From the NCBI GenBank assembly GCA_001244265.2, contig CDLV01000013.1, forward strand, positions 434,001 to 498,000: DNA of 64,000 nucleotides, read 5' to 3'. Position numbers and translations under genes: made by a program. This document shows, piece by piece, positions 1 through 18,773 of this stretch (within the stretch, counting starts at the first letter, position 1; every line of letters starts with the position of its first letter). The stretch comes from Microbotryum violaceum (taxonomy: Eukaryota). A model generated the notes under the pieces. The model saw only the letters and a list, made by a program, of their open reading frames with translations. It had not been told where the DNA came from and ran no database searches.

Positions 1-806
1 CTTTGTCGCAACGACAGTATTTGCTCGATGTACTTGCAAGGTTCGGCATGGCGGATGCTAACAAAAGTGTATTACCAATGCAACCGGGTCTTCAGCTCAA
101 ACCCTGCGACACTCCGGATCCATCGTTACAGACGCAGTACAGGTCGGCGATTGGATCGTTGATGTACGCCGTCGTTGCAACTCGGCCTGATCTTGCATAC
201 CCGGTGTTGTACTTGACAAGATTCACGAACAAGGCGGGCAGCGACCATTGGGCGGCAGTTCTGAAGATCCTACGCTACATCAAGGGAACTCTCGAACTCG
301 GCGTTGTCTACAAGGCGAAACGTGATTCGTTGGTTGGATACGTGGGATACTCGGATTCAGACTGGGGTTCCTGCATCAACACATCCCGATCTACAATGGG
401 GCATGTCTTCAAGCTGGCTGACGGGACAATTTATTGGAGTTCTCGGATCCAGAGCCGAGTGGCGGCGTCATCAACGGAAGCGGAATACATCGGCTTTACT
501 CATGCGTCTCGAGAGTGTCAGTTCTTGAGAAATCTGCTCGCGGAATTGGAAATCACGATTTGTGGGCCGATCGAGCTGAAAGGCGACAATCAAGGCGCGA
601 TAGCTCTCACAAAGAACCCGGTGTTCCACGATCGAACTAAGCACCTACGCCTGACGGAGCATTTCGTTCGAGAACGGGTACGAGAAGGTGACATTGTCGT
701 TAACTATCTTCCAACCGCCGAGATGCTCGCCGACATGTTTACGAAGGCGATGCCGAGACCGGCACTAGAGCAGCACAGGGCGGCCATAGGGATGGGAATC
801 ATGTAG
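1..806 (+). mobile_element. Ty1/copia LTR retrotransposon pol 3' end (RT C-terminus + RNase H); 5' part outside window
   Basis: Open ORF 3-806 with copia motifs YRSAIGSLMY..TRPDL, ILRYIKGT, YSDSDWG, SSTEAEY, DNQGAI, HDRTKH, MLADMFTK; stop TAG at 804-806. Confidence 0.95.
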
Positions 807-811
807 GCCTT

Positions 812-977
812 AGAGCGAGGGGGGGTGTTGAGTTGACACTTGAGGAGTACACTCTGCAGGCTACATGAGCGCGAGCGCGCGCGGGCTTTCTCTTAGCTTC
901 CTTCTGATTCGAGCGTTCTAACGTATTGAACCACCTCGAATCAGACGCCGAGATTCTAGATTTTGCAGCGTGCAACA
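812..977 (+). mobile_element. Polypurine tract (812-825) and putative 3' LTR (826-~977)
   Basis: AGAGCGAGGGGGGG immediately followed by TGTTG at 826. Matching CAACA at 973-977. Internal 11-bp inverted repeat 903-913/935-945. Right boundary uncertain because the 5' LTR is outside the window. Confidence 0.6.
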
Positions 978-2662
978 CCATCCCGGCAATGTTGAGACTC
1001 TGAAGGTACTCGATTGAGAACGGTGATTCGTCTTCGTTTTGGACCAAATCCGCGCTGTAGAACGTTTGCGCGTCACCCGGGAGCACGTCGAGCACCATGA
1101 CGTTGATCTAATCCACCTGCGAATTTTTGGGAGCGAGGAGCGAGAATTGCTCGATCTCGGAAGTATTCGACTTTTTCGCCTATTGACTTATTGTCCAGTT
1201 CGAGCGCGGGGACGAGATAAACGTGTCTGATTAACCCGGATCTGTTCTTCGTGGTCGCCGGCAGGAGAAGCTCACGCGGGAGCGCGATAGAGTCTTCTGT
1301 TTTGTTCACCGAGTCGTCTCCAACTCCTAAGAGCCAATCTGCAAAGCCCTGTGCCTTTGGCCGTTCCGTTTCGGTCATGCGGTCTGCAGCGGCCAGAAGA
1401 CGCATGTTTGACTGCACTCGCACCGTGCCGCTGTTAGTAGGGTCTAAAAGTCAGGCAAGGACTACTTACAGAGAGATGCAGCGCCTCAACTTTCCCCCAG
1501 AAGTCAGCATTCATGATGCAAGCGTCGACTATTTGGGCAGGCCATGACTTGGGAATAAAGGGAAGGCATTGCTTCGGATCCCCTGTGATGTTACAGTTCA
1601 ACCGGTCAGTTAGTCATGCTGCAGTGCGCTTTGCTTTTGAACGATTGGCACACACCTGCCAACACGACGGTCACTCCACCAAACCGAGCCGTTGACGATC
1701 GCATATCTTGCAACATCCTGTCCACCAGCTGGAAACATTTACGGTGCTGCATCGGCGCCTCGTCCCAGACGATCAAGTCGCACATCCGATAAAGCTCGGC
1801 GAGCTGTCCTTGTTTTGGAACATTGCACGTAAGTCGTCGAAGATTTCGATCGGGATCTTAAACCTTGAATGTGCCGTTCTGCATTCTGGAAGTAGCAGTG
1901 CAACAGTACCCGATGATGCAACGGCAAGAGCGTATTTTCCCTCTGACCGAATCCGAGCAAGGACCGTTTTTTCCAAGAACGTTTTGCCTGTCCCTCCGGG
2001 AGCATCAACCAAAAAGACTTTTCCGCGGCTGTTTAAAGCGAGCCAAGAACTGTCTCAACAACAACGCGTTGTTCGGCGTTGCACGACTCGAAGTTATTCC
2101 TAGCAGCTCCGGGGGTGTGGCGCTGCCTGGGGTCGGTGATCTTTCGAACTCCCAGTGTAGAGCCGAACAGATCGGACATTGCAACGTCGTTGATCCAAGA
2201 TCGTGCCGGGGAAAAGGCCCTTCTGGCAACGGTAGCAGCGCAGTTGGGACGGTCTGGCCCGATCGCTCTCTTGCCCGCGGATCGTCGATCGACGACAGTT
2301 GTGGTTGAAGTCGCAGTTACGTCTGCACTTGAACCCGCGTCGCGAGAGGTCTGGAACTGCTTCAAAGCGTAGACAAACGAATCTCAAGCCCGGAGGTGAA
2401 GGACTGCAGTGCGGGCCCGCACTTGCCGTGCGACATTGAGACTGCCTGCTGCCTGTGCACATATGTGGGCAGCCGGGTTGGGGTCAGAACGTCAGGGGGG
2501 GGGGGCAAAACGATCCTTCGTGACTCGACTGTTTGAATCCCCGAACTTAACCCACGAACTTAACCCACGAACTTAACCCACGAACTTAACCCACGAACTT
2601 AACCCACGAACTTAACCCACGAACTTAACCCACGAACTTAACCCACGAACTTACGCGTAGGA
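978..2662 (-). mobile_element. Degenerate Helitron-like element with frameshifted PIF1-family helicase
   Basis: Minus-strand fragments in several frames: RHDLG..CPICSALHWEFER (Helitron N-terminal Cys/His motif), NAEQR, DAPGGTGKT (Walker A), AVASSG..LL...[61 protein letters not shown]. Candidate 5' end A|TC at 2663/2662 is tentative. Confidence 0.85.
2542..2653. repeat. Perfect 13-bp minisatellite (CGAACTTAACCCA)x8.6
   Basis: Eight exact copies plus an 8-bp partial copy, read directly from the sequence. Confidence 0.97.
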
Positions 2663-3263
2663 TGATGCTGCACTCGCTTTCAACAGGGGATGCAATGGAA
2701 TAAATGACTGCACCTGACAAGCGCTGAAACAAAAAGAGCGTCTCCTGTGGACTCATGGACACAACCAAAGCGCAGACAACGTTTGAGAGCAGTTTTCAAG
2801 ATTTGATGTTGCTGGTGTGCGCACAGCCTCCGGGGGGATCGTTGTCCGGCCTTCAAGTTGTCTTCCAAGCTCGATAACCGTCGAGCGGATGCGCGAGTAG
2901 AAGAGGACACTCTTACATGATGTTTGTAGTGTTAGCGACGTGTAGCCAATTTACGGCCCTAGCACGTCCTTAGCTGAGCCCCAGGTAGCAAACGAAGGGA
3001 ATTGCCAAAATCGGAACGCACAGATCCCCTTCCTTTGTTCACCTACTAAGTGCCTCAGCGGATACCTCTCTACTTCATTCGCTACTATTCTCACTCAACC
3101 CCCCCACGATCGATATACCAATTTTCAAGGTCATACAATCACAGCCATCTGCTACTCGTCTTGTCTCAAGACCTCACTGTGAGTGCTCAGCGATCTCCGA
3201 CGCGGGCTTCGATAAGCGCCGGAAGTCAAATTTCCAGCACTGAACTGGTGACCTCTGCAGACA

Positions 3264-4745
3264 ATGTCTGTCGGCCTCTGCGACGAACTCGATTCAATCT
3301 ATCGCCGCTTTGGTTCATCATACGACGAGAACGGAGCTCAAGAAACCTTTAGCCAGCTGCAAAGTCTCTTGACACGCCTGGCCAGAGAAATATCGTCGGG
3401 AACCTTGCCCCCAGACGCAGTGTCGGCCTGCGTAGTAGATAAGGTGCGACAGATCAACATTGTCTCGCATCAGCTCAGCTGTCTTGAATCAGAATCCGTC
3501 GAAATAGAAGCGGCAGCCAAGCTCGAAGTTTCTGAGCTGCTACACGGGCTCATCGGCAAGGTCGGAACTACTCCGTTGAATCAAGACGAGGACTTTTCTG
3601 AAGACTCCACCTCGCAAGAAGAGGACCGTTCGATCTTGCGTTATCGTGCGTTTTTCCCAGAGCACATCTCCTGGCCGTACCCATCGCCTTCGGAAGGTGA
3701 ACAGCTCTTAGCAGCCGTGCCTGCCCATAATCGTGCGCAGCTTTCGAACTGGTTCGTCAACTCACGTCGTCGATCAGAATGGTCGGCGCTCCCTCGAAAT
3801 TTCGGTGTCGGGACGAAGGAAGGAATGGAAGAGCTCATCAGACGAGTTGAATCAGGGCACGGAAGCGAGGAAGAATCAGAGTCCGTCGATAAAGTCCGCA
3901 AGTACTTCGAGGACGACGGCAGCTTGACGATCAGACCGGACTTGAAGGAGATGGTGGAGAAGATAGAGAGGGAGATGAAGAGACAATGTCCCAGCAGGAA
4001 GAGGAAGCTCTCAAATCGGACTGAGGTATGGGTGGACACACCAAAGAGGAAGCGGTCATCGAGTGGCTCCAGGTTGGCGAGCGAGGGGTCGTCGCCGAGC
4101 GAGAGGTCGTCGTCGAGCGAAGGGTCACGGTCGACTCTTGCATCCAGTCCGACCTTCCACTCGTCTTCAACCCTCAATCCTTTCGAAGATCTCAAGATGA
4201 AGTTCTACCAACCCCAGCCGCTTCCACGTGGTCTACAAGCTCACCATTCGTGCGTCGATTCGCCCGCTGCCTCCGAGTATCCAAACGCCGGCGTCCCCGC
4301 GTCACGCCGATGTGTTTCAGATTCTCGGTCTCACACCTCGCCCAACAGGTCAACACCACCTTACCGCTCCGTCTCATCTTCGTTTGCACTTGGAATGGAG
4401 TCGACGCTTGCCGGCTCCTTGATGATGCCGATCGATCCGGATTTTCTCACGACTTGTCCCACGGCCGGCTCGGCTTGGAACGGCGGTGAATCTCTTAAGA
4501 CTTCGGATTATCGATTCGCCTCGACTTCTTCCTCCACGCTGGGAGCGGACCACTCGGATGAAAGGAGTCTTAACACGACGACGACGAGCAATACGTGGTA
4601 CGAGACGCTGCAAGACGATCGATGGACTGACTTGTACCCGTGGCTCGGACGGACTGGAAGCGATTCTCTGAGCGGCCTCGATATGTTTGGTCAGGACGAA
4701 GAGGTGAACTGGCTGATGGGGACTGAGCTGGTGGGGCTGTGTTGA
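3264..4745 (+). CDS. HD1: HD1-class (TALE-like) homeodomain mating-type transcription factor
   Basis: 493-aa ORF with a ~120-aa helical N-terminal region, homeodomain EHISWPYPS...QLSNWFVNSRRRSEW (~3624-3782), basic NLS-like tracts (RKRK, PKRKR) and a Ser-rich/acidic tail. Probable 5'UTR intron GTGAGT(3179)..CAG(3260). Confidence 0.85.
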   Translation: MSVGLCDELDSIYRRFGSSYDENGAQETFSQLQSLLTRLAREISSGTLPPDAVSACVVDKVRQINIVSHQLSCLESESVEIEAAAKLEVSELLHGLIGKVGTTPLNQDEDFSEDSTSQEEDRSILRYRAFFPEHISWPYPSPSEGEQLLAAVPAHNRAQLSNWFVNSRRRSEWSALPRNFGVGTKEGMEELIRRVESGHGSEEESESVDKVRKYFEDDGSLTIRPDLKEMVEKIEREMKRQCPSRKRKLSNRTEVWVDTPKRKRSSSGSRLASEGSSPSERSSSSEGSRSTLASSPTFHSSSTLNPFEDLKMKFYQPQPLPRGLQAHHSCVDSPAASEYPNAGVPASRRCVSDSRSHTSPNRSTPPYRSVSSSFALGMESTLAGSLMMPIDPDFLTTCPTAGSAWNGGESLKTSDYRFASTSSSTLGADHSDERSLNTTTTSNTWYETLQDDRWTDLYPWLGRTGSDSLSGLDMFGQDEEVNWLMGTELVGLC

Positions 4746-5273
4746 CGTTGTGACCGGGACGATACAGAGTGATAATATCGTCTCTTTACTGTGAATTGTC
4801 TGTCACGTACCCGCTTTTGGACCTTTTAAGTGCTTTAGATCGCTGCAAACGTGGGCTCAGGTTCATGATCTAAACCCCAGTTTTTTATCGTGCTTTCCAC
4901 CATCTGGAAGTGGTACAGCTCAGCATATACAGCGATCGGGTTTTCCATTCAGTTGCTCTCTTTTTCAGTGATTTATCGACTGTCATAACGAGTATACCCG
5001 ATGCACTACGCAGTTGCTCGAACCGACGAAAATACAACAGCCGAGAGGTGAGCTTGAGCTCGGACCCTGCCGCCGGTCTCCACGTCGTCTTCTTGTCGTT
5101 CACAGTTCTTCACGGTCCCATCTCTTCAGAGCTTGCTGGTTCAAGCTCACGCGTGATCCAACTGCGACAGTCCACCTTGACGGTCCACAGAAGTCCTACG
5201 CCCCGAACCCATCAGACACGTCGCTGCACACCAGGGTTCCAACCTTGATCACACCGTCGCAGCCGTCATCGTC

Positions 5274-6722
5274 ATGTCGGATTCAGCGGTGGCCGTGCCC
5301 AAGCCGGTAAATCCGCGATTAATATTGCTGTCGCCAAAGCGATATATCGAGCCCTTTGTCCTTGTCGCATCCTCCTGCTCGGCCATAGCAGCTCGGTTAT
5401 GCACACATCCTCGTACGTGCCTCTCCACCGCCGAGCTGCTCGGGAACCCACCGCGGCCTGCGAAGCTCATTCTCCGGTTGTTCCCCCTTTCACGGCTCGG
5501 TTGCAGTGGACACACTTCGCATTCGAATCCAAACCGCACCGGGAAGGACAGTACCACCTCTCGAGGAGCTTATACCCCATCCGAGGGTGAAGACGTTGTA
5601 TGCTGGTCAGTCAAGAGCTTCTCGCAGCTCGTTCGAGGCGATCCTGTCTAACTGTAGTCGACTCGAGTTCTTGACTTGACAGGTCTTCCGGTCGCGATCG
5701 CCTTTTCCGTTCCGGCGCTTTCGGTCTATCTCATGACATATGAAGGTCCGTTGTGACCGTTTCGTAGAGCTCCGGAAAAGGTGATGTGCTGACGGTTTCG
5801 TCGTTCCTGTCGTTTCAGCCTCGAAACGATATCTCGCCGAGCAACTCTTGCCGCCCGGCGTCAAGCCGACGGTCTTGCAACAGATGCCCGTTTTCATGCT
5901 ATCTGGATTGGCCGCCGAATGTGAGACTCATCTCGAGTCGTGAAAGTCGTTGACGACGAGCGAACAACTGAATTAGGCCGAAATACCTCTCCCACCGAAT
6001 GATAGTCGCCTCCGGAGCGATCTGGACACCGATGGATGTGATGAAGGCTCGGTTACAAAAAGGTGGTGAAGGGACAACATCCGCTTCAAAGCTGTTACGC
6101 AAGATCTGGAAGGAGGAAGGGTACCGAGGTGAGCGATCAATGGACTAAGCCGCGGCCGGAATCGACGGGCACGTGACTGACATCGGCGCTTCGTCGTGGT
6201 GGTGGTAACACAGGTGTCTTCCGTGGATATTGGCTGTCGAACGCCATTTTTGTGCCTTATATTTCATTTTATTGGTTCCTCTACGAGTCGTTCAAGCTCC
6301 GCTTCATCCCCAACTACGACCCCTATCACACCAACAAATCCGCACCAAATGCCGAGACGACTTCTTCAAGTGGTGGTCTACCACTGACGGCAAGATACAC
6401 CTTATGCTCAGTCTCGGCGTGCGCCGTGGCCGTCAGTGTAACGAACCCCATCGAGCTGGTGCAGTCGAGGTGGCAGACGAGTCGGGGTTTAGCTAGGGAT
6501 GGGATCGGTGGGATCGTCAAGGAGCTGTGGAGGATGGGCGGGCCGAAAGCTTTTGCTCGGGGTTTGGGGATCAGGATCGCTTATGCGGTGAGTCAGGGCT
6601 GTGGTTGGTGGTATGATTCTCATATATGGGATAACTGAAAGAGATTGTTGGCATTCCAGATCCCGTCCAACGCCATCTCGATGACGACGTACGAGAGCAT
6701 GAAGCGATGGAAGGGGATATGA
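5274..6722 (+). CDS. Mitochondrial carrier family (SLC25) protein, multi-exon
   Basis: Three carrier signatures across exons: THP-x-DTLRIRIQ, WTPMDVMKARLQ, TNPIELVQSRWQ; also IWKEEGYR and IPSNAISMTTYE; stop TGA at 6720-6722. Confidence 0.88.
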
Positions 6723-7005
6723 ATGTGCGAATTTTTATGTGAAGTGTTCTCGCCGAAGCCCAAGTTTCATAGACGAATATTATAGCATAGCATATAACAG
6801 CATCTTGTTGTAACTCTAGACGTGCCCGCCGTCCCTCCCATAGTCCGCGCCCCTATAGCCTCCGCCGATCGAGAACAAGGGGCCGCTGAAGGCTGGAATA
6901 GGAGAACCTCATGTCTCGTATCTTGAGCCAACATTCGACCGCTTCGCGCGGGTCTTAATAGTCCTTCTACGACATGGCACACAACCTAACTCACTTTGAA
7001 AGGTG

Positions 7006-8096
7006 ATGTCATCCATTCACCCTTATGCTCGACTTACAATTTACTACCTCGTGCACACCACGATCGTACTCGTCAGCTTGCTCTCGCTTGCACTGACACT
7101 GACCCGGGCGTTCCTCGAGCTCCTCAATGGCGGTCTCGGGATTCTCCAAGTCACACTACGCTACGCTTCCAAGCATCTCGAAGACCACGAGTGTGCGACA
7201 GAGGCATGGAGGGATATAGGACGAGAGGAATTGAAGGTGCGAAAGACAGGCTGGAAGTGGCCCTCGAACGGTGCCGAGGTCATGGGTGCTTTCAAGGGGG
7301 CCGGGTCGATGGTCAGGGTCGTCGATGATGGGATGGAGCAGGTTATGGCCAGGGAAATCATGAAGAACCGGGAAGTCAAATCGGGTCCACAACGTCAAGC
7401 CCGGGAAGAGATGCTTACTCTGCGGAAAGCGGTGGGTGCCGAACCGCCGGGCAAAGGGGGACTTGGTTCGTACGCCGGTGAGTCCATCACATGTCGAGTG
7501 CTTGCAGCTTCCACTGATCATAGTCACGGGGCTTCAGACAATACCACACCTCGTCTTCATAGCCGCGAAGGCCGTGTACCACCGTACACTCAACCGTATA
7601 TCGCCCCTCAGATCCAACAACCTCTCGAATACGTTATGCCGATTCGTTCCAGAACGGTCGAGGAAACTGTCCATGGTGAGGCTTCGTGCTGGTCTACCTA
7701 CGGTGCTCCACTCAAGAGCATATGATTGACATGCTGCCTCGCACACGTCCTTGGCCACTTGAAAGGATCTCTTCCAGCTTTCGTCCATCGCGAACCCCGA
7801 ACCCTTGCTGAGCCTCGTACACGCCACAGTACGTAGTGCTACGCGTCGCTCCGTTGCTGGAAGCCTTTCATCGAATGGGTTTTTCTCCGAGCCTTTCACA
7901 GACTCGGCGCCTCTTGAGCACCGTAGAGAGGTTGTCAGGGAAGGAGGTTGCATTTGGACGGCGGCGGGGCAGTGGGAGAGAATATGACGGAAGATGATGC
8001 CAGAGAGTACGTCGACTGTATTTATGTGTGGATAAGGGCGACGCATCAGTTTTGATCACTTTGGAAACTGAAGCCGAAAGTCTGCAGAGCTTGTGA
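7006..8096 (+). CDS. Hypothetical protein with N-terminal hydrophobic segment; 3' end uncertain
   Basis: ATG at 7006, hydrophobic N-terminus (IYYLVHTTIVLVSLLSLAL), GTGAG donors near 7478 and 7676; no recognised family. Confidence 0.3.
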
Positions 8097-8472
8097 CTCG
8101 GACTCGGTGATGTTCGGCAAGTGCCCAAGTGCGATTTTGCGCCGAGGCAAGAATATTCGTCAGCAAAGCAAGAGGTGGCCGACGGAACTGTTTATGATAT
8201 GGTCATTTCTTGTCATTTCTTGAACAATTGATGAGGACCGAGGGTACCACTGTGAAAGCGACCAAGTGATATTTATCCGCAAAACCCCGAGTCAAAGTCA
8301 AGAGGATCGACCGGCGTCTCTGAAACCCGGAGTTGGGCTCGGCGCGCGCGGTCAATCTCCGGGCTTGTGTCTCTCGGCTTCTCTCTTCCTTCCTTATTAC
8401 CGATCCGCGCTGACGAGCACTCGTCTTGCTCGGTCATCGTCTTTTCGCCTTGCCCGAAGAGATTTCACCAGG

Positions 8473-9783
8473 ATGAGCACCGGATCAGTAGTCCACTCTT
8501 TGCGTACGGCTTTCCGCTCGCACCAAAGCTGGACTGGCCCCGTGGCTTCGACATCTCGTCTGATCAGCTTGGTCGCTCCGTTGACCGCGTCGGCTGGGGC
8601 TGACTCGGTCGCGCCGGCCAAGGCCGCAAGGACGACCACGACCGCAACCGCCGGTGCTCGCGATTTCGTAGCATGCACATGCAACCCCACACGCTCGGCT
8701 GCGATGCAGACCAGGTCCTACAGCAGTAGGCCTACCCCACGTGCTGGTAAGATACAACCCGCATCTCATCTCTTGATCAGCTAGCCGTGGCTCATTCCCC
8801 CACCTCCCAACTTCGTAGCCTCGTCGCCGTCGTCGGCTGCACCCCGTCGCAAGCGCACCATCATGGACCTCGACAAGCTCAAGCGTCAAGGAATACCTAT
8901 CACCGTGCTCACCGCGCATGACTATTCTTCGGCGCGCTTCATCGAGTCCTCCCATGCGTCAGCCCCCAGTTCTTCGTCGGCCGAGCCCGGCACCGCTTCC
9001 TCGGCAGCCACCTCACCTCGAGGAATCGATGTATGTCTTGTCGGCGACTCCCTCGCCATGGTCGCATGCGGGTACCCATCCACGACCGACCTCTCGCTCG
9101 ACGAAATGCTTTACCACTGCCGCTCCGTCGCGCGGGGTTGCCACTCGTCCTTACTCGTCGCCGATCTCCCCTTTGGCACCTTCCACACCTCGCCCGAGCA
9201 ATGCAGTCAGAGTGCAGTCCGTTTGATCCAAGAAGGGCAGATGGATGCCGTCAAGTTGGAAGGCGGCCAAGAGGTCGCGGATCTGGTCCAGCGCCTCACC
9301 TCGCGAGGAATACCCGTCATGGGTCACGTTGGTTTGACCCCGCAACGACAAGCCTCGTTGTCGGGCTATCGAGTGCAGGGCAAGACCGTCACCTCTGCGT
9401 TGAAGGTCTACCAAGACGCTTTGGCCATTCAAGCCGCGGGCGCCTTTGCCATAGTCATCGAGGCCGTACCCTCCCGTCTCGCAGCCTTCATCTCGCAACG
9501 TCTTCACGTCCCTACGATCGGCATCGGAGGAGGCAAAGACTGCGACGGACAGGTCTTGGTCCAACTCGACATGTTAGGCGTATCCTCCCTCGCCAAGGGG
9601 CCCAGGTTCTTGAAAAAGTACGCCGAATGGGAACCTCAAGCGACGCAAGCGATCCGTCAATACGTGTCCGAGGTCAGGGAGCGCTCCTTCCCCGTCGAGG
9701 AGGAACATGGGTACCCCATGCCCGATGAAGAGTGGCAAGGTTTCTTGGAAGCTGTAGGCGAGACAGGCGAACCCCAAAAGTGA
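8473..9783 (+). CDS. ECM31: Ketopantoate hydroxymethyltransferase (PanB) with mitochondrial presequence-like exon 1
   Basis: LTAHDY, LVGDSLAMV, VADLPFG, AVKLEGG, VMGHVGLTPQ, PTIGIGGG..CDGQVLV..DMLG motifs; Arg/Ser/Thr-rich N-terminal exon. Confidence 0.95.
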
Positions 9784-9926: not shown

Positions 9927-12040
9927 TCACAACTGCGGCACAGCATGTCCGTCCGCTCTCGGATCCGAACCCCCGGCCCAGACCCCATTCGAGAGCTTTT
10001 GAATGATCTGTCAGAGGTAGACAGCGAAGCGAGAGCTAGCATTAGTTCCAACATATACTATTTGTGGTCCCATAATAAAGCGATTCGAAGGACTGACCTG
10101 ACCCCGACCAAACATGGCCCGATCGTGACCCTTGAGCAATCTCACATCATGCCCCATCTTCTTGAGCTTGTCGAATGTTGCCTCGGGAATCCCATATTCC
10201 AGGAAGACTTCGGAATTGATATCCCCCGCATCCTCAGGGTTGACACTCGAGTCCGGTAGACCTGCACCGATGCAGATCCTCGGTGCATCGATCGCTTCTT
10301 GCGGATCGTGGCCGTGGTGGAGCATGTTGAGCAGGACTTGGAGCTGGCCTTGGGGTTGGTTGAATCCCCCCATCACGCCAAATGCCATGAAGAGGTCCAA
10401 GCCCTCGTCTTCTTTGTTTCCTCGGGTTACGAGGGCGGGGATGATGGTGTGGTAAGGTCGTTTCCCGCCCTGTGCAGTCAGTGTCAAGGAATTAGCTGGG
10501 CCGGTCTTCACTTCCTCCGGCCAGGGCAGAGTTTGCGCCTACCTCGGCGCAGTTGGGATGACCCTCGACGAGTGTAAAGCTGCTACCTCTGTTCTGCAGA
10601 GTGAAACCGCACCCCTTGGGGACGGCGGATGTACCAAATCCTGCATAGTTGGACTGGATGTACGACATCGCGTTTCCCTCGGCATCCGCAACGCTAAACT
10701 GCACTGTGTCGCTCGAAGCGAAAGGGGCACCCTTTTTGATGATGGGGTTCGCCTTCTCGGGATCAAACAAGGCCGCACGTTGAGTGAGATAATCCTTGCT
10801 CAGCAACTCCTTGATAGAGACTCGCATCTTTTCCGGATCGGCGACGTAGGCTCGGGCGTCTGCAAAGGCTAGACGAAGGACCTCGATGATGACATGAAGC
10901 CACTCGGGCGAGTTGTGGTCCGCTTTAGACATGTCGACCTTACCCGTGTCTTGCAAGATGTCGACGATACCCAGAGCGATGAGTGCAACAATTCCTTGTC
11001 CGTTGGGAGGGATCTCCCAAAGTCTGACCCCTTCGTGACCACCGTACGACATGGAGATGGGATCGACCTGAGTACTCGTATGAGAACTGAGATCTTCAAG
11101 GGTCATTTCTCCGCCGCCGTCCTTAATGATGTCGACGATGGCTTGGGTGATGCGGCCTTTGTAAAAACCGTCCTTTCCCGCGTTGATGAGCTCACGGAAG
11201 GTTTGAGCAAGAGTGGGGTTCTTGTAGATTTCGCCTGCTCGCGGTGCATGGGTTTTTTTCGTTTCGGGGTCCATGATGAGCATCTCGGCACTGTTCGGAG
11301 AGGCTCGAACCAGGTGCCGGTAAGCGTGATGCCACTGGTGCGCCGAGATCGAAGAGATGGGAACTCTATAGCTCGAAACAGCACAGTCTTAGAGAGTCAG
11401 TACAAGAGCACCTAAGACACGGCCAGAATGAGCAAATACTTGCCCTTCCTCGGCCATTTTGATCGCCGGCTCGAGCGCCTCCTTGATGGTGATCTTCCCC
11501 GAGCCATAGAGCTCGATAGTATCAATCCACGCAGCAGCACAGCCCGGAACAGTGACGCTATGTAGTTTAGACACGTCAGATCAGAATTACCCCACCTAGA
11601 ACTGAGTTCCTCAGAGCATCGACCTCGGTGATATCCGGAGAATAGCTCACTCACGCGTTAAGGTTGCCTAGCGGGATCTCGGCACCCTTGATGCCCTTCT
11701 TCCTCAGTCCTTCCAAGGTCAAAGCCTGGGGTGCTCTCCCACTCCCGTTCAGCCCCTTGACCTGCTTGGCCTTGGCATCGTACCAGAGGCAAAACGCGTC
11801 ACCACCGATTCCACATGACCCCGGTTCGGTGACGTTCAACGCCGCCGAAACAGCCACCGCAGCATCAGCGGCATTACCTCCCTGACGGAGGATCGCAAGA
11901 CCGGCTTCACATGCATAAGGTTGCGATGCCGAGACCATCCCTTTGGCCGAGTAGACGGTAGAACGCCGCGACGAGAAACGCGCAAACTCGCTTTGCCCTG
12001 AGGCGGGGAGCGAAAGGGGTAGGTGCAGATTGCGAGTCAT
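9927..12040 (-). CDS. Gamma-glutamyltranspeptidase family protein, multi-exon
   Basis: [44 protein letters not shown](nucleophile)[47 protein letters not shown]; stop at 9927-9929. Confidence 0.93.
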
Positions 12041-12401
12041 GGTCGTGCTGGAATAGTGTCCTCGTCTGACAGGTTTGAATCCAAGTCGGATGCTGAATGC
12101 TTGGGCAGGTAGGGAGGCGTGTGGGGAGGCTAAGCGCACTAGCAGCCGGGGCAGACGGTACGCTACCCCTACAATGTAGGGATGACTTTCGCAATGTGGG
12201 GCGGGGCGGGGGGCGAACCGGCCCTGTCCCAAGTGCCGTGGTGGCAAACCCAGCAGATGTGGGCAGTGGCTCCTGCCTCGTTATGTTGAACATTCGTGGA
12301 ACCATGCACTGCGGTACCCCAGCCTTCGGCAACCAAAGATTCACTGGTTGGTTTTTCTGGTCAATGCACAGGGCGAGCTGCGCCAAGAGTCCTCTCTTAC
12401 A

Positions 12402-13380
12402 AACACCTGGAACACCTAATTAAGCATCACGCCGCTAGACGCAAATGAGTTTGAGACACCCGCAACTTGGCCCGAGTCCAGAGCCCACGCAAACCCCTCA
12501 CTTTGAGTGAATGTTGTTCCTCAAAGTCCCCTCTCGTCTCTCTGTCTCCCGATTGTCACATCTTCCCCCCAACTCCCTAAGCCACATTCTCACCATGTCG
12601 TTCGCCTTGGCCCACAATCGCCCCCTCGAAATCATGCATCTCTACTTCGACGACAAGCAAGAGGTAATGGCGACTTGCCTGCTCGCGACGAACGAGACCG
12701 TAGAACTAGTATCCGTTGTAAGCATCTCCGACAGGCGAGTCATCCTCCGGGCCTTCGCCCACGAGCTCCTGTGGTCCGTCATCCGCACCGTGTACTTCCT
12801 GGAAGTACTGCCAGTGATCTGGCATCACATTATTCAGACTATACGCACCGTCGTTCGAGGACCAGTCAATATGAACGCACGTCAAGCCCGCGACGACTTC
12901 GCTGATGCCGTCGCAGATACGAGCCATATCTCGGTGCAGTCGGACCGCGCCATGTCACATTTCCTGGCCACGATATCGTCCCCGTTGTCTCGTGCAAGCG
13001 TTATTGCTATTACGCGGGAGATGGGAGGCGTCGCCGCGGGCATCGCAAGGTAGCGATCTAACGGATACTAGTTCTACGGTCCCGTTCGTCGCGAGCAGGC
13101 AAGTCGCCATTACCTCTTGCTTGTCGTCGAAGTAGAGATGCATGATTTCGAGGGGGCGATTGTGGGCCAAGGCGAACGACATGGTGAGATTGTGGCTTAG
13201 GGAGTTGGGGGGAAGATGTGACAATCGGGAGACAGAGAGACGAGAGGGGACTTTGAGGAACAACATTCACTCAAAGTGAGGGGTTTGCGTGGGCTCTGGA
13301 CTCGGGCTAAGTTGCGGGGTGTCTCGGGATCGGAAACTACTCTGCGTCTAGCGGCGCGAGGCTTAGGTGTTCCAGGTGTT
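12402..13380. repeat. Long inverted repeat / foldback element: arms 12402-12717 and 13060-13380, spacer 342 bp
   Basis: The arms are reverse complements. The inner ~255 bp differ at about 3 positions by eye; the outer ~60 bp carry indels. Confidence 0.97.
12595..13053 (+). CDS. Orphan ORF (~152 aa from ATG 12595) spanning the left arm and spacer of the foldback
   Basis: CACCATG start context after a pyrimidine-rich leader; open to TAG at 13051-13053; no recognised family. Confidence 0.45.
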   Translation: MSFALAHNRPLEIMHLYFDDKQEVMATCLLATNETVELVSVVSISDRRVILRAFAHELLWSVIRTVYFLEVLPVIWHHIIQTIRTVVRGPVNMNARQARDDFADAVADTSHISVQSDRAMSHFLATISSPLSRASVIAITREMGGVAAGIAR

Positions 13381-13675: not shown

Positions 13676-16600
13676 TCAGTCGTCGTTCAAGTACGAGCTC
13701 CAGTCGTCCTCGTCGGCGATCGCAGTCGTGGCCGCGGGAGCAATGGTCGTGCTGGCACTAGCCCACTCATTTTGAGCCGAGAGTGGGCTTTGAGACGGCC
13801 AAGCCCCACCGAGCGTGGATGACATTGCATTTCCGTTGAACGACCCACGTCCAAGCATCGCGTTGGCGCCGGCACCGGCGATGAAAGGCGAAGGTGATCC
13901 TTGCTGTTGTTGTTGTTGCTGCTGCTGCTGTTGCTGTTGCTGAAGTTGTTGTTGTTGGCGCTGCTGCTGCTGTTGCTGCTGTTGCTGCTGCTGCTGTTGC
14001 TGTCGAAGCAGCATCTGCTGTTGCTGTTGCACCATCGCCAGCTGGGCGTTCTTCTGCTGAGCCATGCCGGTCATTCCTTGATTCTGGCCCAAGAGCTGTC
14101 GGTGAAGAACGACCAAATCAACAAAAAGCCTCGGACCAACGATACACGTGCCCGCAAATCAACTTACTTGTGAAGGACTACCGGCAAGGTATTGATTCGG
14201 CGCCTGCGTTTGGAACATGCCAGGCGATCCGTTTTGGGCGAGTCGTTGGCGAGCTTGCAGCTGCATTGTCAATATTTCAAGCTTAGTATCGAAAACACCT
14301 CCGAGGTCAGAAGCACGCAAGCTTGCACTCACCTGAGCAAGTTGCATAGCCTGCTGATGAGTAAAGGTCTGCTGCTGTTGCTGCTGCTGCTGTTGCTGGA
14401 ACTGCATTTGTTGCTGTTTTCCGGCGAGCCTCGAGTCAGCGCACAACCACGGTCGAAAAGGGGTTCATTCACCAGGTACTTACGATGGCAAATTGCTGCT
14501 GTTGCTGCTGGGTCAAGTTCTGCTGCTGTGACTGCTGTTGGGCGGCCGCCTGAGCTTGTTGTTGTTGAGCTGTGACGGCAGCTGCCGCTTCCGCAGTCGC
14601 CTTGGCCTTCTCGGCTATCTCAGCGTCCTCCTTCTTCTTCTTTTCGGCTTCCTCCTTGGCCTTGCGTTCCTTTTCCTCGGCCTCCCTTTGCTTCTTCGTC
14701 TGGCGCTTCGGCTTGGGTTTGGTTGGTGCGGGCGTCGAAGGAGGAGCAGGGGATACCTTGTTCGTCAACGCGGAGGGCGAGTCGACGGCACCACCAGTGA
14801 GTCCCGTGTTGCGAGGCGTGGGCGCTGAGGCGTAAGGGCTTTGAGCAGGGAAGATTGCGGATCCGCTTGCAAGAGCGGAGTACGCCGGTGAAGGTGCAGC
14901 AGAGAAAGCGGCCGGAGAGGCATGCTGCGGCGAAGGTGCGGTCGGAGGTCGCGTTCCAGTAGCGAAAGGCGAACTATGGGACTGAGCTGAAGGAGTCGGT
15001 GTCTGGTGCAGAGGGAGGCTACCGGGTGTAAAGGGCGAAGAAGCCGGGGCAGAACCAGGCGCAGGTCGTTGGGGCGGATAACCGAACTGCGAGGGAGTGC
15101 CCGGTTGCCCGGCGCCTTGACTTGCTGCAGCCTGTTGGTAGGCCATCATCGCCGCATTCTGCTTTTGCTGCAACAGATTCTGCGATTGGGCGTAGACTGC
15201 AGGTGAACCGGAACGCATTTGGAGCTGCTGCTGCTGAGCCAATCTGGGAAGTCGAATCGAAAGAGTCAGTCCCAACTACCGTGAAGTACTTTCAAGTCGG
15301 CAGTGGACCAGAACTCACTGCTCTCGAAAGTATGCACTGCCCGAAGTCTCAGCGCCGGGAGGACCGCCTGCTGGTGGACTCGGAGCGTAAGGCGAGTTGT
15401 TGGTCTGCCTCAACTGCGCATGTTGCAATTGCGGGCTCTGACCGAAGGGTGGCGATCCGGCCCTGCCGAGCGAGTTGTTCTGCTGCTGCTGTGCCGCTTG
15501 CTGCTGTTGTTGTTGCGCCACCTGTTGTTGCAGCTGCTGTAGCGTCAACGCGGACGGGCCATTGTTCCCCATCCCCGGTGCTCCCATCAATCCCTGAGGG
15601 CGAGCTCCGGCCTGCATCTGTTGCTGCTGCTGTTGAGCAAGCCTCGCGTTTTCCATCGAAGTTGCCTGGAGCTGGTACAGTAGAGCTTGCGCGTTGCGTT
15701 GGATCATCTCTTGCACGTGCGGCGGGAGTTGTCGGAAAGACGCGGCCGACATGATAGCCTGAAGGGACGCGTACTGCTCGGCCGGTGGTCGATGATCGTT
15801 TGCGGAGCCTGGCATAACGGGACCGTTTTGGGTCTGCTGCTGCTGCTGCTGCTGTTGTTGTTGTTGCTGCTGCTGCTGCTGTTGTTGTTGCTGCTGCTGC
15901 TGGCCTGGGTGAGGAGACTGGGACGGGCCTGGCGGCGGAGGAGGCAACGGTCGACCAGGCGTTGGCGCGTTCAGATAAGACGAAGGCGGTGGCATAGAGA
16001 ATGTCGAGTTGCCCAGATCCGAGTACGAGCCAGGAGAAGCGACATGGGCGTGTTGGCTGAGCGCCGACATCGGACGAGTAAAACCGGGGCCTGGAGTCGC
16101 TGATCCTTGGCGATTGGGAATCGGCGGAACTCGTCGAGCTTGTGCTGCAGGTGACCCTATGGCTTGCTGCTGCGCCTGTTGCTGCTGAGCCTGTTGCTGC
16201 TGAGCCTGTTGCTGCTGAGCCTGTTGCTGCTGAGCCTGTTGATGTTGCGCCTGCTGTTGCTGGGCCTGCTGCTGGGCCTGCTGAGTCTGTTGCTGCATCT
16301 GCTGCTGCCGCTGCATCGCGTTCACCGCACTTTGCTGAGCCTGCGCCTGAGCTTGAGCCTGTTGAGCCTGAGCCTGCGCTGCTGCCTGAGCGGCCGCTTG
16401 GTACTGTTGGAACTGCTGCTGCTGATTTGCCATATGCTGCTGGCGAAGGTAGCTCTGCTGTTGCGGGGTGAGCTGGGCAAAGTGCTGGGCCTGGACCTGC
16501 GGTGGCATTTGGAGATGTGACGGAATCGAGTTGGGATTCCCGAGAGATGCTGGAGGCGCATTGCCTACGAACGGCGGTTGAGACTGCGAGGGATGGCGTT

Positions 16601-18773
16601 GAAGAGGTGCTTGATTACCCATGGGCGACGCTTGAGCTCCTGCGAAGGCGATTGACGATCCGTTGACTGCTGCAGGTCCACGTGCTTGAACAGCAGGCGA
16701 CATTCCCGTCGTAGGCGGCAAATTCGTTGCAGTACCTGCCGGGCTTGCGGATGGGCCTACCGGCGCGATAGTCGACGTGGACGTGGTATTCGAAACAGTC
16801 GGCAGAGATGCAGGCGCTCGAGCAGGGGACCCAGTCTGAAAGGGAGCAGCACTCGACAGCTCGGGCTTGATCGCAGGGGTAAATGCTGAGCCTGATCGTT
16901 TCGGTGGACTCTCCTCGGCATCCGTATCGATGGCTCGTTTGCCGTTGAGGTTGACGACACCTTGCATCGCGTTTGACGTGAATACCGGGCCGTTGGCAGG
17001 CTGAAGAGCGGCGTTGGGCAAAGTCGGCGCCGGTAGAGGCTGCGAGGCGACCGCCGTGCTTGGAATGAGCGCGTTCTTCTGAGCTTGCTGCTCATATCGG
17101 TCGGCCGCAGCGAAATAGGCCTTGAGCGTCGAATATAGCTGTGCCAGTCGCGGTCCGAGCTTGGGGGTTGGCGGACTTTCAAGAATCGGGCATGGAGGGA
17201 TCGGCAAAGGTCCATCGCGGATCGAAGCTTGCTCGGCCATGGCGGACAGGTAGGCGATATTGGACTGCAGGCGCTGCGTCAAGGCCCCGTGCTCGATCGG
17301 ATCCATGGGCCCGCTCTTTTGCAGCTCGCATGCGATCCTACAGAAGTCAAAGTCGAGTCAGCTCAAGAGTTGCCGTGATGAAGTCTGTTGGGAAGAATTG
17401 CCACATACTTGACCAATTCGACGTTTAGAGCCAGCACGCACGACACCTTATGACCATTGAAGCGACGGCGAACCTCCTTTGGCGCCATAGCTTGCACGTT
17501 GGGGGGCATCACCAGCGGTCCGGGCAGAGGAGGCGATTGCTTCACCGGTTTTCCCGACGAGTCGGACTCTAGGCCGGCGGCCGAGCCAGACCCTGCGATC
17601 ACTTCAGCCGATTTGGGCGGCGCTTCATTTGCTGCCGCAGGAGGCGACCCAGCTTTCGTAGATTTGGCTGGTTCACTGCTTGCAGCTGCGTCGATCTGAA
17701 TGTTACTCAAAGCGTTCGTGCCTGCTGGCTCGATTGCGTCTGCAGTATGGTCGCTAGGCTTCTCCTGATCGGCACTGACGGCTTCCAGGGTCGTCCTCGA
17801 CGTTTTAGGAGCAGTCCGGGTCGCATCGGCCCTGGAGGCTTCCGCGTCGGCCGAAGATACCGGTACCGGGTCGGTAGAAGCGTCAGGGGTCACGGCCGGT
17901 ATCGTCGCTGGCGCGCTCGGTTGCTCGTCTTCTGGGATGATGTCGGCAACAATAGATTCTGTCGTCGCACCTTCATCGTCGTCCATAGTCAGAGGAAATT
18001 TTGTTGCTTCTACGACTTTCGTATTCGGGATTGGATCTTTTGTCACGATGCCCTCGAATGGAGTGGGTACTGAGGAAATCGGAGGAGTCAGCATTTTCAC
18101 GCCGACTTGGTCTGTTCATAATCTCCTAGCAGCTGGAGCTAACATGACTCACTCGGCTCATCTTTGGCCGATTGCCGTGCCACTCCATCGAGCTCAGCGA
18201 CATTTCCTTTATCCTGCTTCGGATCGGTGAGATTATCCGTAGCTTTTGGTATCGTGTCCGTAGTCGTTGCGGTCGTCAGCAGCGAAAATTCTGCCTGCTC
18301 TAGCGCCGCAGGCGGTTTGGGAACCGGTTCCTCGTCCTTTACCGAACGTGCCGTCGATAGTGTAGGTTTGGGGGCAGGCGGTGCGCCTGTACACGCCTCA
18401 TCCACTTGAGGTGAAGCTTTTGGTGACGGGACGGGCCGTTCCGGCTTCGGTTCAGACTCCGTTTGCCTGGGTGCTGCCGGGGGTTCCTCTTCGATCGCGG
18501 GTTCGACCGAGGTAACGTCGGAAGCCCGAGGTACCGGTGCCAACGCCTCCGAAGACTCTGGCTCGTACGGTGATGCGTCTTCTGGCCCAGCAAGTATCTC
18601 GACAATGGGAGCATCCTCTCCTGCCCGGACTTGCTCGGACGCGCCCACGGTCTCGTATTTGGGCTGCGACTCCAAATCATCGGCGAGAGAGGCGGGCTCT
18701 GCTGTAGGGGGTTCGGGCACTGGTTCAGTGAGGGTGGAAAGGGTTGACGGATCGGACGAAGAGACCAGGGCAG

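What the first reader, a model, noticed from the sequence alone, without database searches (positions are those of the whole stretch)
12402..13380. Self-complementary foldback gene: promoter and 5' end of an orphan ORF repeated in inverted orientation right after its own stop codon
Seen: ~320-bp arms (12402-12717, 13060-13380) flank a 342-bp spacer. Each arm holds the same pyrimidine-rich leader, CACCATG and the first ~41 codons (MSFALAHNRPLEIMHLYFDDKQ...ELVSV). The plus ORF runs through the whole spacer and stops 6 bp before the right arm. The minus copy runs antisense into the spacer. I see no transposase and no clear target-site duplication. Inference: a plus transcript would fold into a ~250-300 bp hairpin, and the two arms could act as convergent promoters. 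Candidates are an endogenous hairpin/siRNA locus that silences itself or a gene family, an invertible cassette, or a gene-capturing long-TIR non-autonomous element.
Basis: partly seen in the sequence, partly recalled or inferred. Interest (0 to 1): 0.8.

Follow-up and report, generated by a model that had tools for sequence, protein, structure and literature searches.

The report
Transcribed fold-back of orphan fungal gene
In an anther-smut fungus, the front of a gene found only in this genus was copied backwards right behind the gene, so its RNA can fold into a long hairpin that could silence the gene itself; similar hairpin loci are known in rust fungi, flies and maize, and no small RNAs have been shown here yet.

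Summary
The inverted repeat is real: the inner 259 nt are 99% alike, and contigs of an independent DNA run carry the spacer/right-arm joint. It is not a transposon with cargo. The spacer is the gene's own body plus an inverted distal piece, so the locus is two partial copies of one gene, tail to tail. The gene belongs to a family found only in Microbotryum that once evolved as protein-coding (pN/pS about 0.24). Its three other loci here are broken, and two are head-to-head pairs. A run that splices introns covers flank, arm, spacer and joint, so the locus is probably transcribed; strand unknown. Dicer-like and Argonaute genes are present. The stem has no match elsewhere in the genome, so its only perfect target is itself. 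Best reading: a self-targeting hairpin-RNA locus born by a local replication or repair accident; small RNAs are untested. Fold-backs are common in this genome (7 of 25 control loci; earlier scan notes on other DNA report several), and tail-to-tail small-RNA loci are published for a rust fungus.

The parts
12402..12717 (+). Left arm (piece A): upstream/leader region plus first 41 codons of the gene
   Evidence: found only at this locus by genome DNA search; flank and arm match a M. silenes-dioicae gene model P0001
12402..12458 (+). Outer, more diverged part of the arm; its terminal 18 nt are perfectly inverted at 13363-13380
   Evidence: 5 substitutions in 53 columns plus 13 gap columns against 3 in 259 inside, Fisher P=0.004; terminal 18-mer occurs only at these two ends with up to 2 mismatches
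12595..13053 (+). 152-aa ORF: family-derived to about codon 131, then a tail read from the junction and the antisense of piece D; longest open family member found in this genome
   Evidence: 46% identity to P0002 over residues 1-131; pN/pS 0.063/0.267 against the C1/C2 copy over 85 codons
12718..12989 (+). Spacer piece B: continued body of the + copy, with a 30-nt in-frame deletion relative to the C1/C2 paralogue
   Evidence: 77% identity over 333 columns to L004
12990..13002 (.). Short junction where the two partial copies meet; not assigned by alignment
   Evidence: MAFFT did not place it in register
13003..13058 (-). Spacer piece D: distal part of the same gene, inverted, joined directly to the right arm through a deletion of about 300 nt of gene body
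   Evidence: 96% over 47 nt and 89% over 56 nt to L004 on the opposite strand
13060..13380 (-). Right arm (inverted piece A)
   Evidence: spacer/right-arm joint present in contigs of runs X9 and X16
12955..13182 (-). Minus ORF of 75 aa: 41 family codons, then out of frame through piece D; probably non-functional (inference)

Best explanation
A self-targeting hairpin-RNA locus made by a local inverted duplication. Shown: a member of a Microbotryum-only gene family (order A-B-D) became A-B-D'-A' within 1 kb, with no foreign DNA. Inferred: this arose by template switching during replication or break repair (or a tail-to-tail duplication trimmed by deletions), a process that has left many fold-backs in this genome. 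Probable: RNA crosses the locus; any transcript that enters both arms folds into a ~260-bp near-perfect stem with a 342-nt loop, pairing the 3' part of the message with its own leader and first 41 codons. Inferred, untested: Dicer cuts the stem into siRNAs. Their only perfect target in the genome is the locus itself, so the likely effect is to damp its own message in cis; if both strands are read or RdRP spreads, spacer siRNAs could also reach the C1/C2 paralogue. My odds by step: local duplication 0.85, hairpin-containing RNA 0.7, siRNAs 0.55, kept by selection 0.2.
For: Anatomy against paralogues. Single-locus arms and ends, no TSD. Run X16 (kind '?' on record) skips two introns of the neighbouring gamma-glutamyltranspeptidase gene with no intron cover, so it behaves as RNA, and its contigs cover 11655-12499, 12470-12694, 12665-13059 and the joint into the right arm. 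Two Piwi loci and two RNase III domains in one 1388-aa frame; PMC4469406 (passages) reports Dicer, two Argonautes and RdRP expressed in M. lychnidis-dioicae. PMC4578785 (passages) reports 21-nt reads from tail-to-tail homologous gene pairs in a rust fungus. 7 of 25 control loci hold an inverted repeat, and one of them is a single-copy fold-back of a repeat whose other copies are linear. Spacer 21-mers: 20 of 322 perfect and 51 at one mismatch to the C1/C2 copy, which X16 also holds as a low-depth contig.
Against: No small-RNA or stranded data; contigs show neither strand, start nor a single transcript across both arms, and no silent stretch was laid as a control. Only 1 of the 4 runs laid gives RNA-like cover of the element. 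The stem has no target in trans (0 of 239 21-mers within 2 mismatches of the paralogues). Arm mismatches show no clear strand bias for G-U pairs (1 of 8 on +, 3 of 8 on -). The + ORF stays open for 152 codons, which a silenced relic need not do. The origin mechanism rests on anatomy only.
Confidence: 0.55

Rival explanations
1. Selected suppressor: the family was once harmful or selfish, and the hairpin was kept because it silences the most intact copy (itself) and formerly other copies, like Drosophila Nmy/Tmy or maize Mu killer.
For: Past purifying selection (pN/pS about 0.24 in two comparisons) followed by decay of every copy found here; 3 of 4 family loci are inverted pairs by nhmmer; inner arms far more alike than outer arms (P=0.004); left arm also present at this site in M. 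silenes-dioicae.
Against: No intact trans target in this genome. The C17 and C12 pairs are head to head and too diverged to fold (z -0.7 to -2.1). Under one and the same blastn test 2 of 4 family loci score against 7 of 25 controls, which is no clear excess. Arm likeness can come from gene conversion without selection. No function is known for the protein.
Confidence: 0.17
2. Inert rearrangement scar: transcription covers only parts (message ends before pairing, or noise and read-through from neighbours), no stable hairpin or small RNA is made, and the ORF is either a normally expressed truncated gene or a pseudogene.
For: Fold-backs are common here; contigs cannot prove one molecule spans both arms; the 342-nt spacer makes the DNA palindrome stable (general principle in PMC7999016 passages).
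Against: X16 has a contig running from the spacer at least 53 nt into the right arm, so some RNA enters the pairing region if X16 is pure RNA; RNAi genes are present.
Confidence: 0.2
3. Non-autonomous long-TIR element (Foldback or Pack-MULE type) that captured a gene.
For: 1-kb size, 320-nt inverted ends, perfect terminal 18 nt with an internal direct repeat; family pieces are dispersed on four chromosomal sites.
Against: Arms and terminal motif are single-locus; no TSD; the arms are themselves gene sequence continuous with the spacer; other family loci lack these ends.
Confidence: 0.04
4. Invertible cassette: recombination between the arms flips the spacer and swaps which promoter drives the long ORF.
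For: Two near-identical inverted arms could recombine; homogeneous inner arms suggest exchange between them.
Against: A flip inside the arms regenerates nearly the same ORF behind a nearly identical leader, so little would change (from the sequence); no recombinase family hit among the flanking ORFs scanned (not all window ORFs were scanned).
Confidence: 0.03
5. Assembly artefact.
For: Palindromes can be mis-assembled (general knowledge).
Against: The arms differ by 8 substitutions and indels; run X9 of another study holds the left flank/arm, arm/spacer and spacer/right-arm joints, with the arm contig at about twice the flank depth; 17 of 24 listed runs hold half or more of the words.
Confidence: 0.01

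Closest known systems
Tail-to-tail inverted-repeat small-RNA loci of Puccinia striiformis (pst-sir-9, pst-sir-110; PMC4578785, passages read)
   Same: Related basidiomycete; two homologous gene copies tail to tail; a read-through hairpin proposed to target the genes themselves.
   Different: There 18-22-nt reads were mapped; here none are available. Here the paired part is the leader and 5' coding end, and the copies are complementary partial copies fused into one ORF plus its 3' region.
Drosophila hairpin-RNA (hpRNA) loci, e.g. the young hp58, ballchen and hp-tHMG loci (PMC10317233, passages and section 12)
   Same: Born by partial inverted duplication of a lineage-specific gene, in some cases of its 5' region; long near-perfect stem; dispersed related gene copies.
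   Different: Fly hpRNAs have Dicer-dependent siRNAs and expressed targets in trans; here no trans target matches the stem and nothing is shown on siRNAs.
Mu killer of maize (PMC3440606, abstract)
   Same: Partial inverted duplication holding two copies of the 5' end; hairpin could come from read-through of a flanking gene (both neighbours here lie on the minus strand).
   Different: No transposase or transposon family was found for this gene; no active element to silence was found.
Foldback / Pack-MULE long-TIR non-autonomous transposons (definition recalled, not from a call)
   Same: Long inverted ends around gene sequence.
   Different: No TSD, no second copy of the ends, arms are part of the gene, no foreign cargo.

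Membership tests
Endogenous hairpin-RNA (hpRNA / inverted-repeat siRNA) locus | Long near-perfect inverted repeat able to fold in one strand | tested here: met
   259 nt, 3 mismatches; z -44 and -62
Endogenous hairpin-RNA (hpRNA / inverted-repeat siRNA) locus | One transcript contains both arms | tested here: inconclusive
   Contigs of the spliced run X16 cover arm, spacer and joint, but contigs give no strand or single molecule
Endogenous hairpin-RNA (hpRNA / inverted-repeat siRNA) locus | Dicer-dependent 21-22-nt siRNAs from the arms | not testable with these tools
   No small-RNA run was listed
Endogenous hairpin-RNA (hpRNA / inverted-repeat siRNA) locus | Host has Dicer and Argonaute | tested here: met
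   PMC4469406 passages
Trans-acting suppressor hairpin (Nmy/Tmy, Mu killer type) | Stem complementary to an intact, expressed target elsewhere in the genome | tested here: not met
   Arm search finds only the two arms; 0 of 239 stem 21-mers within 2 mismatches of three paralogous loci; one assembly only
Long-TIR non-autonomous DNA transposon (Foldback, Pack-MULE, MITE) | Target-site duplication | tested here: not met
   Only 3-nt matches with offset ends
Long-TIR non-autonomous DNA transposon (Foldback, Pack-MULE, MITE) | Related termini at other sites | tested here: not met
Long-TIR non-autonomous DNA transposon (Foldback, Pack-MULE, MITE) | Empty-site allele in relatives | not testable with these tools
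   No relatives held for this genome; M. silenes-dioicae model P0001 shows flank and left arm together
Invertible cassette | Both spacer orientations occur | not testable with these tools
   The shared 225-nt arm contig breaks the phase

The most novel reading that the evidence does not exclude
The most intact surviving copy of a once-selected, Microbotryum-only gene family carries its own built-in silencer: its 3' region is antisense to its leader and first 41 codons, the inner stem is kept homogeneous across at least one speciation, and the family was repeatedly caught in inverted pairs. This would be a fungal counterpart of the hairpin suppressors of selfish genes in flies, acting in cis, and one of a genome-wide class of 0.7-1-kb 'front-end fold-backs' that Microbotryum uses to shut down genes and transposons.
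Probability: 0.15. Interest if true: 0.75.

Novelty: new member of a known kind. Interest (0 to 1): 0.42.

Why it matters
If siRNAs are confirmed, this is a clean, single-copy, natural hairpin locus in a basidiomycete whose parent gene, breakpoints and paralogues can all be traced, so the birth of an endogenous RNAi locus could be studied directly. With the other fold-backs of this genome it makes a testable question: are the many fold-backs in Microbotryum neutral scars or a pool of silencers? If no small RNAs are found it is an ordinary rearrangement scar.

Tried and rejected
No RNA holder listed on record; X18 and X19 (RNA by guess) do not cover the element: X18 has two low-depth pieces in the neighbouring gene, X19 (under 90% alike) stops at 12305; no inference drawn. 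In X16 the collapsed arm contig has depth 30.3 against 52.8 for the spacer, whereas DNA run X9 has 44.4 against 24-27; PMC10317233 says RNA-seq is depleted in hairpin arms, but the tool states that contig depth cannot rank parts of a gene, so I keep this as a lead only. X9 shows the right-arm letter at 12587 in its one arm contig; this may be bubble removal, so it is not counted as arm homogenisation. F-box likeness seen by eye: no Pfam support. Protein function: no longer relatives among 609 candidates; 5 hits in the 1.84-billion library, one (P0005) a repetitive chance-like match; Atlas hits weak; AlphaFold model pLDDT 51 and no fold match at E<=0.001; nothing in viral or metagenome contigs; no Rfam match. 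Spliced-retrocopy origin of the minus copy: a donor-like site follows the arm, but the joint is one base off a clean splice (read). An LTR family lies beside the C2 and C17 copies and supplies the tail of P0002, but in inconsistent orientation, so I did not take the gene for an LTR-element ORF. Window tile control gave 0 of 20 but a tile edge at 12800 split this very repeat, so it is weak. No earlier scan note matched by sequence or nearby place.

Full report
Setting. The window lies on contig C11 of a 33-Mb, 20-contig fungal assembly. Relatives of the ORF are named from Microbotryum saponariae and M. silenes-dioicae, and earlier scan notes call the genome an anther-smut Microbotryum. The element sits between two minus-strand genes: a glutamine-rich gene ending near 13676 and a gamma-glutamyltranspeptidase gene starting near 12040.

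Observation. The inner 259 nt carry 3 mismatches; the outer part carries 5 in 53 columns plus 13 gap columns (Fisher P=0.004). Either strand folds into one long stem. It is not an assembly error: 17 of 24 listed runs hold half or more of the sampled words, in six studies of which one holds a possible source sample, and run X9 of another study has contigs across the left flank/arm, arm/spacer and spacer/right-arm joints. I laid 4 of the 24 runs on 11300-13075; the right arm/right flank junction was outside that stretch.

Anatomy. The arm occurs only twice in the genome by DNA search and its terminal 18-mer only at these two ends, with a control count of the same size. The spacer matches a paralogue present in near-identical form on C1 and C2 (counted as one locus): 77% over 333 columns in the same orientation, and 96% over 47 nt in the opposite orientation. 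So the parent gene ran A-B-D, and the locus reads A-B-D'-A'. The + copy keeps A and B (to about 12989); the - copy keeps A and, after a deletion of about 300 nt, D (13058 to about 13003). B ends and D begins about 30 nt apart in the paralogue, and 13 nt between them are unassigned. There is no foreign cargo and no target-site duplication. Near-abutting, non-overlapping pieces fit one chain of template switches better than two unrelated deletions; this is inference.

The gene family. The 1.84-billion library gave 5 hits at E<=0.001: P0001 and P0004 (M. silenes-dioicae), P0002 (M. saponariae, 191 aa, 46% over 131 residues), P0003 (unnamed, 79% over 37) and a repetitive protein I disregard. A profile search added P0007 (M. 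saponariae) and the window's own 180-aa product. P0001 begins in the left flank and continues into the arm, so flank and left arm are together in a sister species; its right arm could not be seen. Uncorrected pS/pN are 0.267/0.063 over 85 codons against C1/C2 and 0.645/0.152 over 29 codons against C17; in 3 of 4 shifted-frame controls pN exceeds pS, and in the fourth the ratio is 0.66. The family therefore once coded for protein. No domain, fold or function was found. The other loci here are broken: C1/C2 is cut at its 5' side by a copia-type LTR and has a frameshift relative to the window ORF; C17 and C12 carry stops and are head-to-head inverted pairs by nhmmer (E 1e-11 and 5e-9; 9e-27 and 7e-8; reversed control no hit). 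That makes 3 of 4 loci inverted pairs, but by a plain blastn test only 2 of 4 score, against 7 of 25 control loci (23 around copia LTRs after dropping one family locus and four duplicates, plus 2 others); 0 of 23 had an inverted second LTR copy. One control fold-back of the same shape (193-nt arms, 315-nt spacer) is a single rearranged copy of a repeat whose other copies are linear. Fold-backs are thus a genome-wide habit, as earlier notes also suggest.

Transcription. Run X16 has no kind on record, but it skips two introns of the neighbouring gene (ends CT..GC and CT..AC on +) with no cover inside them, so I treat it as RNA. Its contigs cover 11655-12499, 12470-12694 and 12665-13059 with 53 letters turning into the right arm, and a low-depth contig that matches the C1/C2 paralogue. 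Contigs give no strand, start or single molecule, no silent stretch was laid, and only this one of four runs shows it. The lower depth of the arm contig in X16 is kept as a lead only.

Silencing potential. Two Piwi loci and a two-RNase III frame are in the genome; PMC4469406 (passages) reports the pathway expressed. Of 239 stem 21-mers none lies within 2 mismatches of the three paralogous loci; of 322 spacer 21-mers 20 are perfect and 51 have one mismatch to C1/C2. The stem can therefore target only its own locus; reach to the paralogue needs two-strand transcription or spreading.

Comparison. It works like the tail-to-tail inverted-repeat small-RNA loci of stripe rust (PMC4578785, passages), young fly hpRNAs (PMC10317233, passages and section 12) and Mu killer (PMC3440606, abstract). 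Membership of the hairpin-RNA class is open until siRNAs are seen; the trans-suppressor and long-TIR transposon tests were not met. PMC9757828 (abstract) covers short fungal milRNA hairpins; PMC8728187 has no occurrence of 'fungi' in its main text; PMC7999016 (passages) gave background on palindromes. Five searches (12-20 papers listed each out of 28 to 8,768) listed no paper on hairpin or small-RNA loci of Microbotryum; the library is incomplete and no supplements were read, which might hold expression values for this gene.

Verdict. Real, probably transcribed, most likely a self-targeting hairpin locus from a local duplication accident (0.55); selected suppressor 0.17; inert scar 0.2. New member of a known kind; interest 0.42.

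Noticed in passing
L040 (G000:C5:359714-362878) 726-1426 and 1660-2052: Two fold-backs side by side; the first has 193-nt arms at 98% around a 315-nt spacer, the same shape as this finding, and other copies of its repeat family are linear.
   Followed up: partly
L029 (G000:C14) 2202-3214; L031 (G000:C1) 394-589 / 1692-1970; L022 1270-1406; L024 2817-2886; L025 1031-1189; L045 542-676: Further inverted repeats or palindromes near copia LTRs.
   Followed up: no
L061 (G000:C17) 5067-5571: Old head-to-head pair of the same gene family with a short hairpin at its centre, arms about 60% alike.
   Followed up: partly
L062 (G000:C12) 4969-5446: Family remnant with an inverted, partly overlapping 5' piece; shape recalls 5'-inverted retrocopies (recalled), no poly(A) seen.
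   Followed up: partly
L016/L018 (C2 and C1, 95000-104999) and L004/L005: C1 and C2 are 99.9% identical here, as expected of the shared end of a mating-type chromosome pair (recalled); L016 holds palindromes at 8436-8625 and 9086-9158.
   Followed up: no
L017 1813-2109, L061 5582-5803, L063 4663-5135, L064 4914-5439: One LTR-like repeat lies next to the C2 and C17 family copies and provides the C-terminal part of the M. saponariae model P0002, in inconsistent orientation.
   Followed up: partly
window 12040-12499: In run X16 one contig joins the spliced glutamyltranspeptidase gene to the left arm, so the hairpin locus may overlap or feed that gene's leader.
   Followed up: no
window 13676-17306 (-): Very glutamine-rich multi-exon gene; the two ORFs scanned have no Pfam hit at E<=0.001.
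   Followed up: no
G000:C2:792192-792738 and 832105-832651: Two equally scoring copies of one repeat in opposite orientation about 40 kb apart, as also for an LTR at 801080 and 823433: a possible large inverted duplication on C2.
   Followed up: no
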